In this document: one piece after another, positions 6,777 through 7,481 of the stretch
Layout: every line of letters begins with the position of its first letter
Position numbering within the stretch: the stretch's first letter is position 1
From: a virus
UHGV virus genome: UHGV-0377753
DNA: 11,478 nucleotides
Direction: 5' to 3' (one strand)
Position numbers and translations under genes: made by a program
Notes under the pieces: generated by a model
Told to the model about the DNA's origin: nothing
The model's database searches: none
The model's input: only the letters and a program-made list of their open reading frames with translations

Positions 6777-6986
6777 AAAGAAGATTTCCAATAATCAGAA
6801 CAAGTCGGCTCCTGTTTAGTTACGAGCGACATTGCTCCGTGTATTCACTCGTTGGAATAAATACACAGTGCAGTGTTTATTAGTATGCCTGTCTTTTAAC
6901 CACATCAGGCTCGGTGGTTCTCGTGTACCCCTACAGCGAGAAAAATAGTAAAATCCTCTTACCCCTACAGTAAGAGAGTGATTTAT

Positions 6987-7481
6987 ATGTCTGATGAAAA
7001 AGGAATAATAAGTAGGATTACAGATGCAGTTTCTGGTGCCGGAGGTGCTCTGATGAGTGCTGTTGGCGCAGTAAAGGAAATCCAGAAAATGCAAATAGAC
7101 TACTCAGTAAAAGAAAAAACATACGAACTTGTCGATAAGCTCATGGATGCCCAACAGCAGCAAATGTCACTTAATGAGCTTTTGATGATTTCTAAGGACA
7201 AGATTATTGAGCTTGAAGAAAAGATAAATCGAGCCTCTAAGTGGGAAGAGGAAAAGAAAAACTATGAGATGTATACACCTACTGTTGCTACGGTGGTTTA
7301 TCGTCTCAAAAAATCGGCAAATACCGGTCAGCCAATGCACTATCTTTGCGCTCAATGCTATGAATCTTCTGTGAAATCCATACTTCAATACGAAGGATTT
7401 GCACCACCTTCTAACCATAGGATGAGATGCCATAGGTGTAACGCCTCCTATCTGTTCCCTAAATCTGCATTTTCTAAATAA
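6987..7481 (+). CDS. Hypothetical coiled-coil protein with C-terminal C4 zinc ribbon, 164 aa; occupies the ral/sieB slot (candidate exclusion, defence or anti-restriction factor)
   Basis: ATG 6987 with Shine-Dalgarno aagagag 8 nt upstream; the track ORF starts at GTG 6978. Gly/Ala-rich N-terminus ([27 protein letters not shown]), a Q/E/K-rich central helix, and CAQC-x26-CHRC at the C-terminus. AT-rich coding sequence. Ends convergently with N (8-nt overlap), as sieB does in lambda. Confidence 0.7.

What the first reader, a model, noticed from the sequence alone, without database searches (positions are those of the whole stretch)
6777..7481. ral/sieB slot occupied by an unrelated 164-aa coiled-coil zinc-ribbon protein
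Between ea10 and N, lambda carries ral (anti-restriction, minus strand) and sieB (superinfection exclusion, plus strand). Here the interval is about 390 bp shorter, no Ral-like ORF is present, and a single AT-rich plus-strand gene encodes a protein with a Gly/Ala-rich N-terminus, a long predicted helix and a C-terminal CxxC-x26-CxxC zinc ribbon. It ends convergently against N, overlapping by 8 nt. The position suggests a swapped exclusion, defence or anti-restriction function. I do not recognise the protein.
Basis: partly seen in the sequence, partly recalled or inferred. Interest (0 to 1): 0.7.

Follow-up and report, generated by a model that had tools for sequence, protein, structure and literature searches.

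The report
Known prophage defence gene rip1
The unrecognised gene in the sieB position of this lambda-like prophage is Rip1, a phage-defence protein published in 2026 that assembles around an invading phage's ring-shaped packaging protein and punches a pore in the cell membrane, so the finding is real but already explained.

Summary
A 164-aa plus-strand gene (6987-7481) lies between ea10 and N. It is AT-rich and overlaps N convergently by 8 nt. The interval is 389 bp shorter than in lambda and has no Ral or SieB homologue. One correction: the cysteine motif is CxxC-x23-CxxC, not x26.

The protein is not unknown. It differs at one residue (Y96H) from phage HK446 Rip1 ("ring interacting pore 1"). 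The cryo-EM structure of HK446 Rip1 bound to the T6 small terminase is PDB 9OOX (Patel et al., Nature 2026).

As summarised in a 2026 review, twelve Rip1 copies assemble around the 11-mer small-terminase ring of a superinfecting phage. The C-terminal half contacts the ring, and the N-terminal amphipathic helices form a membrane pore that lyses the cell prematurely.

The family is large (about 3,000 clusters at 50% identity). It includes HK620 HkaP and Pseudomonas DMS3-25, which lies between the terminase genes. In every context I examined the gene lies opposite to the flanking lytic operon.

The implied novelty was not. RefSeq mis-annotates the locus in phage ev099, calling an antisense ORF instead.

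The parts
6987..7481 (+). rip1 coding sequence (164 aa plus stop): a single-protein, pore-forming anti-phage defence gene
   Evidence: ORF. It matches phrog_1244 at E = 4e-53. It matches PDB 9OOX 'ring interacting pore 1 (Rip1)' of HK446 at E = 1.4e-105 with one substitution, Y96H. Foldseek top hit is 9oox_M at E = 3.5e-17.
7005..7088 (+). Residues 7-34: Gly/Ala/Ser-rich N-terminal amphipathic helix, the proposed membrane-inserting pore element
   Evidence: AF2 places a helix at 7-34 with low pLDDT of 42-58. Hydrophobic moment is 0.42 with mean hydrophobicity 0.34 for residues 7-24. The review states that the N-terminal part of Rip1 forms an amphipathic helix. Assigning residues 7-34 to that element is my inference.
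7101..7256 (+). Residues 39-90: a single 52-residue helix linking the pore element to the sensor domain
   Evidence: AF2 secondary structure. The model superposes on 9oox_M at TM 0.90 normalised to the target, rmsd 2.0 A over 125 columns.
7263..7460 (+). Residues 93-158: beta-rich C-terminal domain with four invariant cysteines (C121, C124, C148, C151), the ring-binding sensor half
   Evidence: AF2 strands with pLDDT 82-88. The four Cys are invariant in 23 close and 24 diverse family members. The review states that the C-terminal half contacts the small-terminase ring. Zinc binding is inferred, not shown.
6886..6986 (+). Conserved upstream region that presumably carries the gene's own promoter and 5' UTR. 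It is shared with the region upstream of lambda sieB and HK620 hkaP.
   Evidence: Bases 6886-6943 are 100% identical to the 58 bp ending 28 bp before the lambda sieB start. The whole stretch aligns with HK620 up to the hkaP ATG. No strong sigma-70 consensus was found by the scan, so the promoter is inferred, not mapped.
6955..6977 (.). Palindromic hairpin immediately upstream of the rip1 ATG. On the plus strand it contains the SD-like AAGAGAG. On the minus strand it is followed by a T-run and is terminator-like for the leftward pL transcript.
   Evidence: Terminator-like hits on both strands. The RNA fold gives -8.6 kcal/mol with z = -1.25, which is not exceptional. Weak evidence only.
6757..6778 (-). 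Terminator equivalent to tL2A, downstream of the slot in the leftward direction
   Evidence: Terminator-like hairpin plus T-run. The homologous sequence is annotated tL2A in HK620.
7474..7875 (-). N antiterminator gene, convergent with rip1 and overlapping it by 8 nt (context)
   Evidence: ORF. It is 92.7% identical in DNA to lambda N. HK446 has the same 8-nt overlap, with gp37 at 25911-26405 and N at 26398-26721.
7167..7433 (-). Spurious 88-aa antisense ORF that RefSeq NC_049953 annotates in place of rip1
   Evidence: Annotated as H3V35_gp46 'hypothetical protein'. It has no PHROG match and lies entirely inside the conserved plus-strand gene.

Best explanation
The gene is rip1 (ring interacting pore 1), a single-protein abortive-infection defence carried by the prophage. 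These steps are published for HK446 Rip1, which differs from this protein at one residue:
- Rip1 alone is not toxic.
- When a superinfecting phage reaches late gene expression, it makes an oligomeric ring protein. For E. coli phages such as T6 this is the small terminase 11-mer. For Pseudomonas phages it is the portal.
- Twelve Rip1 protomers assemble around that ring through their C-terminal halves.
- This brings together the N-terminal amphipathic helices into a pore that breaches the inner membrane.
- The cell lyses or dies before progeny mature, which protects the lysogen population.

These steps are inferred here:
- The gene is transcribed in the lysogen from its own promoter, located in the conserved DNA it shares with the region upstream of lambda sieB.
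- The four invariant cysteines bind zinc and stabilise the sensor domain.
- The Y96 allele in this window behaves like the H96 allele of HK446.
For: - Sequence: 163/164 identity to PDB 9OOX chains named 'ring interacting pore 1 (Rip1)', E = 1.4e-105.
- Structure: the AF2 model built from 23 homologues has 9oox_M as top Foldseek hit, titled 'HK446 Rip1 in complex with T6 small terminase', at E = 3.5e-17, target TM 0.90 and rmsd 2.0 A. The next hit is at E = 0.5.
- Synteny: HK446 gp37 lies in the identical slot with the identical 8-nt overlap with N, and its DNA is 99.2% identical.
- Mechanism: taken from the review's summary of Patel et al., Nature 651:1060 (2026). A conference report and an independent citation that Rip1 senses the small terminase agree.
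[quoted passage not shown] The four Cys, W86, Y93 and Y105 are conserved across the family.
- Architecture: an N-terminal amphipathic helix and a C-terminal beta domain are present.
Against: - The primary paper could not be read, so mechanistic details rest on a review's summary and the PDB title.
- No expression or phenotype data exist for this allele or for this prophage.
- No convincing sigma-70 promoter was found upstream.
- The N-terminal 38 residues are modelled with low confidence. The deposited chains matched by the fold search hold only 124-126 of the 164 residues.
- PADLOC, Pfam and NCBIfam gave no significant hit. This probably reflects library dates rather than evidence against.
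Confidence: 0.93

Rival explanations
1. The protein is a highly diverged SieB, or a functional SieB equivalent. It would abort superinfecting lambdoid phages by the SieB mechanism rather than by sensing a ring protein.
For: It has the same slot, orientation and upstream DNA as lambda sieB.
Against: There is no sequence similarity to lambda SieB (E = 9.4). The two belong to different PHROGs, 1244 against 6399. The protein is essentially identical to one with a different, experimentally supported mechanism.
Confidence: 0.02
2. The real gene is the minus-strand 88-aa ORF (7167-7433), as annotated in RefSeq for phage ev099, transcribed from pL downstream of N. The plus-strand ORF would then be fortuitous.
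For: RefSeq NC_049953 annotates it as H3V35_gp46. It lies in the pL transcript direction.
Against: It has no family match. The plus-strand ORF is conserved down to 24-30% identity with invariant Cys residues across thousands of clusters. The HK446 record annotates the plus strand. The plus-strand protein has been purified and its structure solved.
Confidence: 0.01
3. The protein replaces Ral and acts as an anti-restriction or restriction-alleviation factor for the phage itself.
For: ral is missing from this interval. HK446 carries a gene annotated 'anti-restriction protein' in the adjacent slot.
Against: The ral segment is simply absent, while the sieB-proximal DNA is retained. The gene is on the sieB strand, not on the pL-transcribed strand where ral lies. 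It has no similarity to Ral. The published function is defence.
Confidence: 0.01
4. The protein is a genuine Rip1 family member, but this allele or prophage context has a different trigger or a diverged specificity. For example, it might respond to portal rather than small terminase, or it might be inactive.
For: The review reports that different family members are escaped through different ring proteins: portal in Pseudomonas phages and small terminase in E. coli phages. This allele carries Y96 where HK446 has H96, at the start of the sensor domain.
Against: Position 96 varies freely across the family, with Y, H, F, C, T, S, Q, A, E, D and K all seen. Apart from position 96, the protein is identical to HK446 Rip1.
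Confidence: 0.03

Closest known systems
Rip1 of Escherichia phage HK446 (gp37, YP_007111990; PDB 9OOX; Patel et al., Nature 2026)
   Same: 163/164 residues are identical. The length, the genomic slot between the early-left genes and N, the 8-nt convergent overlap with N and the upstream DNA are all the same.
   Different: There is one substitution, Y96 here against H96 in HK446. The host phage backbone also differs. This window has lambda/ev099-type exo-bet-gam, ea10 and lambda cI, whereas HK446 has an HK97/HK022-type backbone with erf and abc2.
Pseudomonas Casadabanvirus Rip1-family proteins (for example DMS3-25, D3112 orf25, LPB1 gp25)
   Same: They belong to the same family: about 30% identity, E of about 1e-17 to 1e-18, and the invariant 4-Cys motif. 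They are also single opposite-strand morons.
   Different: [quoted passage not shown] According to the review, escape mutations in Pseudomonas phages map to the portal rather than the small terminase.
HK620 HkaP (NP_112049; also in HK629 and HK630)
   Same: It has the same slot, the same 164-aa length, the same PHROG and near-identical upstream DNA up to the ATG.
   Different: It is only 27% identical and is therefore a different allele of the family. N is not directly adjacent, because hkaQ lies between them. I found no published functional test of HkaP.
Lambda and P22 SieB
   Same: It is a positional and broad functional analogue: a plus-strand gene convergent with N that protects the lysogen by aborting superinfection. 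This rests on the lambda annotation and on established knowledge of SieB.
   Different: There is no detectable homology, and the PHROG differs. The published Rip1 trigger is a ring-shaped late protein.
Tab (JBD26 gp31) and TerI (Listeria phi10403S)
   Same: Both are prophage-encoded single-protein defences that act on late virion-assembly components. Tab occupies the same terS/terL opposite-strand slot as Pseudomonas Rip1 homologues. TerI also targets the terminase complex.
   Different: Tab is an unrelated 83-aa protein that blocks tail assembly through the tape measure protein and needs an anti-Tab partner. TerI blocks packaging without forming a pore. Rip1 uses the ring as a scaffold to build a pore.

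Membership tests
Rip1 (ring interacting pore 1) family | Sequence and profile homology to experimentally characterised Rip1 | tested here: met
   163/164 identity to 9OOX Rip1 chains, E = 1.4e-105. About 30% identity to Pseudomonas terminase-slot homologues. Same PHROG, 1244.
Rip1 (ring interacting pore 1) family | Fold: N-terminal amphipathic helix, a long helix, and a C-terminal ring-contacting domain | tested here: met
   AF2 gives H7-34, H39-90 and a beta domain at 93-158. Foldseek against 9oox_M gives target TM 0.90 and rmsd 2.0 A. The amphipathic moment is 0.42.
Rip1 (ring interacting pore 1) family | Conserved CxxC...CxxC motif in the C-terminal domain | tested here: met
   C121, C124, C148 and C151 are invariant in alignments A1 and A3. 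Whether the authors treat this motif as defining is unknown, and zinc binding was not tested.
Rip1 (ring interacting pore 1) family | Prophage-borne, stand-alone, opposite-strand moron | tested here: met
   It lies inside a lambdoid prophage, with no partner gene in the slot, and is convergent with N. Seven other family contexts have the same orientation rule.
Rip1 (ring interacting pore 1) family | Expression from its own promoter in the lysogen | tested here: inconclusive
   The conserved upstream DNA is shared with the region upstream of lambda sieB and HK620 hkaP, but the scan found no strong sigma-70 match. There are no transcript data.
Rip1 (ring interacting pore 1) family | Assembly of a 12-mer around an oligomeric phage ring (small terminase 11-mer or portal) and formation of a pore | not testable with these tools
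   Reported for HK446 Rip1 with T6 small terminase. Not tested for this allele.
Rip1 (ring interacting pore 1) family | Anti-phage protection, with escape mutations in the small terminase or portal | not testable with these tools
   Known from the literature only.
SieB superinfection exclusion (phrog_6399 / phrog_1301) | Sequence homology to lambda or P22 SieB | tested here: not met
   BLASTP E = 9.4. The window protein hits phrog_1244 only, whereas lambda SieB hits phrog_6399. tblastn of SieB against the window finds nothing.
SieB superinfection exclusion (phrog_6399 / phrog_1301) | Position between ral/ea10 and N, on the plus strand and convergent with N | tested here: met
   Position alone does not confer membership.
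Ral restriction alleviation | Homology to lambda Ral, on the pL-transcribed strand | tested here: not met
   There is no tblastn hit with E below 1. The roughly 345-bp ral/orf28 segment is absent in the alignment.
Tab tail-assembly blocker | Homology to the 83-aa JBD26 gp31, and an adjacent anti-Tab gene | not tested
By description it is an unrelated 83-residue protein. It shares only the slot with Pseudomonas Rip1 homologues.

The most novel reading that the evidence does not exclude
The invariable placement of rip1-family genes antisense to a strong lytic-cycle transcript may be a self-immunity device. In lambdoid phages that transcript is N-antiterminated pL, in Casadabanviruses it is the late operon between terS and terL, and in Mu-like and e14-like phages it is the early operon. 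On induction, convergent transcription across the whole gene would shut off Rip1 synthesis. In this window no minus-strand terminator-like site precedes the hairpin at 6955-6977. The prophage's own small terminase or portal ring would then not trigger suicide, and the system would need no anti-Rip1 partner of the anti-Tab kind.
Probability: 0.15. Interest if true: 0.45.

Novelty: already known. Interest (0 to 1): 0.12.

Why it matters
The finding has little discovery value. The protein, its structure and its mechanism were published in 2026, and this copy is one residue away from the HK446 protein whose structure was solved.

It has three practical uses:
- **Annotation:** public records still label this gene 'hypothetical protein'. 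RefSeq for phage ev099 calls the wrong strand. About 93 of 5,426 complete E. coli genomes carry this near-identical cassette unnamed.
- **Hotspot:** it documents the sieB slot of lambdoid phages as an exchangeable defence position. SieB and two roughly 27%-identical Rip1 alleles swap behind the same upstream DNA.
- **Open question:** it raises a testable question about how Rip1-carrying prophages avoid triggering their own defence.

Tried and rejected
- **Family libraries:** Pfam, NCBIfam and PADLOC v2 (2023) gave only sub-threshold noise. This is uninformative, probably because the libraries predate Rip1 or do not include it.
- **SieB homology:** tested directly against lambda SieB and rejected.
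- **Ral, orf28 and SieB:** tblastn found none of them anywhere in the window.
- **HK446 gp36 'anti-restriction protein':** it shows no similarity to lambda Ral, so it cannot show whether ral loss and the rip1 swap were separate events.
- **Literature leads that turned out to be other systems:** Tai tail-assembly inhibitors, Tab, Zip, the PilZ-binding Sie protein, and TerI. None is this protein, although Tab shares the Pseudomonas slot.
- **The hkaP paper:** the only paper mentioning hkaP used its flanks as insertion sites and says nothing about function.
- **Upstream hairpin 6955-6977:** considered as a translational control element and not pursued, because its stability is unexceptional (z = -1.25) and its conservation is by descent only.
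- **Rfam:** it found only the cIII thermoregulator, outside the finding.
- **Primary paper:** the Nature paper could not be retrieved by DOI or PMID.

Full report
**Context.** The window is the early-left and immunity region of a lambda-like prophage. In order it carries int, xis, b-region morons, exo, bet, gam, kil, cIII and ea10, then the gene in question, then N, a 285-aa gene in the rexAB position, cI, cro, cII and O. Bases 47-11338 are 99.97% identical to Escherichia phage ev099, NC_049953.

**Checking the observation.**
- A plus-strand ORF runs from ATG 6987 to TAA 7479-7481 and encodes 164 aa.
- It is AT-rich: 39.6% GC against 45.7% for the window.
- N occupies 7474-7875 on the minus strand, so the two genes converge and overlap by 8 nt.
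- The interval from the ea10 start to the N stop is 743 bp here and 1132 bp in lambda, a difference of 389 bp.
- tblastn with lambda Ral, orf28 and SieB finds nothing in the window.
- The cysteines are at 121, 124, 148 and 151.
- The finding's start coordinate, 6777, is intergenic.

**How the slot is built.** Alignment with lambda and HK620 shows that the window equals lambda with the roughly 345-bp ral/orf28 segment absent. The DNA just upstream of lambda sieB is retained: window 6886-6943 is 100% identical to lambda. HK620 has the same arrangement up to the ATG of its gene hkaP. Only the coding cassette downstream of a shared upstream region has been exchanged. A simple sigma-70 scan found no strong promoter there, so the promoter is inferred and not mapped.

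**Which strand is real.** RefSeq annotates an 88-aa minus-strand ORF (window 7167-7433) in ev099 instead of the plus-strand gene. That ORF has no family match. The evidence for the plus-strand protein is much stronger:
- It matches phrog_1244 at E = 4e-53.
- It has homologues across Enterobacterales with an invariant N-terminal motif and four invariant cysteines.
- An exhaustive profile search finds 2,964 cluster representatives at E <= 1e-3 and 1,387 at E <= 1e-10.
- The HK446 record annotates the plus strand.

**Identification.** Pfam, NCBIfam and PADLOC gave nothing significant. An AlphaFold2 model built from 23 homologues had a mean pLDDT of 71.7. It shows helices at 7-34 and 39-90 and a beta-rich domain at 93-158.

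I searched that model against the PDB. The two top hits were chains of 9OOX, [quoted passage not shown]. The best scored E = 3.5e-17 at 99% identity, target TM 0.90 and rmsd 2.0 A. The next hit was at E = 0.5. A sequence search confirms this. The 9OOX chains are named "ring interacting pore 1 (Rip1)", are 164 aa long, and match at E = 1.4e-105. The only difference from the window protein is Y96H. HK446 gp37 sits in the same slot with the same 8-nt overlap with N.

**Mechanism, from the literature.** The primary paper is Patel, McCarthy, Taylor et al., Nature 651:1060-1067 (2026). I could not retrieve it. A 2026 review summarises it as follows:
- Rip1 is a prophage protein that is not toxic on its own.
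- Infection causes loss of inner-membrane integrity.
- Escape mutations map to the portal in Pseudomonas phages and to the small terminase in E. coli phages.
- Cryo-EM shows an 11-mer small-terminase ring surrounded by 12 Rip1 protomers.
- The N-terminal part forms an amphipathic helix, and the C-terminal half contacts the ring.
- The complex releases dye from liposomes and makes holes in E. coli.
- Small-terminase mutants that cannot oligomerise do not form the pore.

A conference report and an independent paper agree with this account. The features visible here fit it. Residues 7-24 form a moderately amphipathic, Gly/Ala-rich helix with a hydrophobic moment of 0.42. The C-terminal domain is confidently modelled.

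**Family and contexts.**
- HK620 HkaP is a 27%-identical member in the same slot.
- Pseudomonas Casadabanvirus homologues such as DMS3-25, D3112 orf25 and LPB1 gp25 are about 30% identical. [quoted passage not shown] This matches the review's description of Pseudomonas Rip1. It is also the slot that the unrelated Tab occupies in JBD26.
- The four cysteines are invariant across 24 diverse members.
- In every context examined, the gene lies opposite to the flanking lytic or early operon. The contexts are ev099, HK446, HK620, DMS3, LPB1, an E. coli Mu-like phage, Pelagibaca and Rhodobacter transposable phages, and an e14-like phage.
- Ninety-three of 5,426 complete E. coli genomes carry the near-identical full-length cassette. 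Every listed record labels it "hypothetical protein".

**Comparison with SieB and Ral.** Lambda SieB shows no similarity (E = 9.4) and belongs to a different PHROG. Rip1 is a positional and broad functional analogue of SieB, not a homologue. I found nothing to support an anti-restriction role.

**What remains open.** I have no direct evidence on three points: expression in this prophage, zinc binding, and how the prophage avoids activating its own Rip1 during induction. The consistent antisense placement suggests silencing by convergent lytic transcription, but this is speculation. The hairpin just upstream of the ATG (6955-6977) is not unusually stable (z = -1.25).

**Verdict.** The gene is a published, structurally characterised defence protein, so the novelty rating is "already known" and interest is low.

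Noticed in passing
window 11338-11478 (and 1-46): The last 141 bases are the reverse complement of ev099 sequence lying about 166-306 bp further downstream. This creates an inversion joint inside the O replication gene and truncates its ORF (10723-11451). None of 5,426 complete E. coli genomes contains the joint, so it is probably a contig-end assembly artefact or a private rearrangement. Bases 1-46 also do not match ev099, possibly because they are a prophage/att junction.
   Followed up: partly
window 7167-7433 (-) and 6149-6361 (-): The RefSeq annotation of phage ev099 calls a spurious antisense ORF instead of rip1. It also omits cIII, even though the cIII ORF (MQYAIAG...) is present in the window and Rfam finds the lambda cIII thermoregulator RNA at 6244-6302 with 88.5 bits.
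   Followed up: partly
window 8279-9136 (-): The rexA/rexB position between N/pL and cI holds a single 285-aa gene. RefSeq calls it an NYN domain-containing protein, and it matches phrog_5783, which has no known function. This is another exchanged cassette at a classical exclusion locus and may be a defence candidate.
   Followed up: no
window 1845-2570 (-): A 241-aa protein with an apparent signal peptide lies in the b-region between xis and the ea22-like gene. It is annotated as a lysozyme inhibitor LprI family protein and is a moron-like cargo gene.
   Followed up: no
L004 2968-3495; L005 1968-2474; L007-L010 around 2501-3000: Rip1-family genes sit opposite to the neighbouring lytic or early operon in every phage context checked. 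Pseudomonas homologues occupy the same terS/terL slot as the unrelated defence protein Tab. That slot and the lambdoid sieB slot therefore both look like exchangeable defence hotspots.
   Followed up: partly
window 6955-6977: A palindromic hairpin lies directly upstream of the rip1 ATG and includes the SD-like AAGAGAG. On the minus strand it is followed by a T-run. It is the first terminator-like site the leftward pL transcript meets after crossing all of rip1 in antisense. Its stability is not exceptional, z = -1.25.
   Followed up: partly
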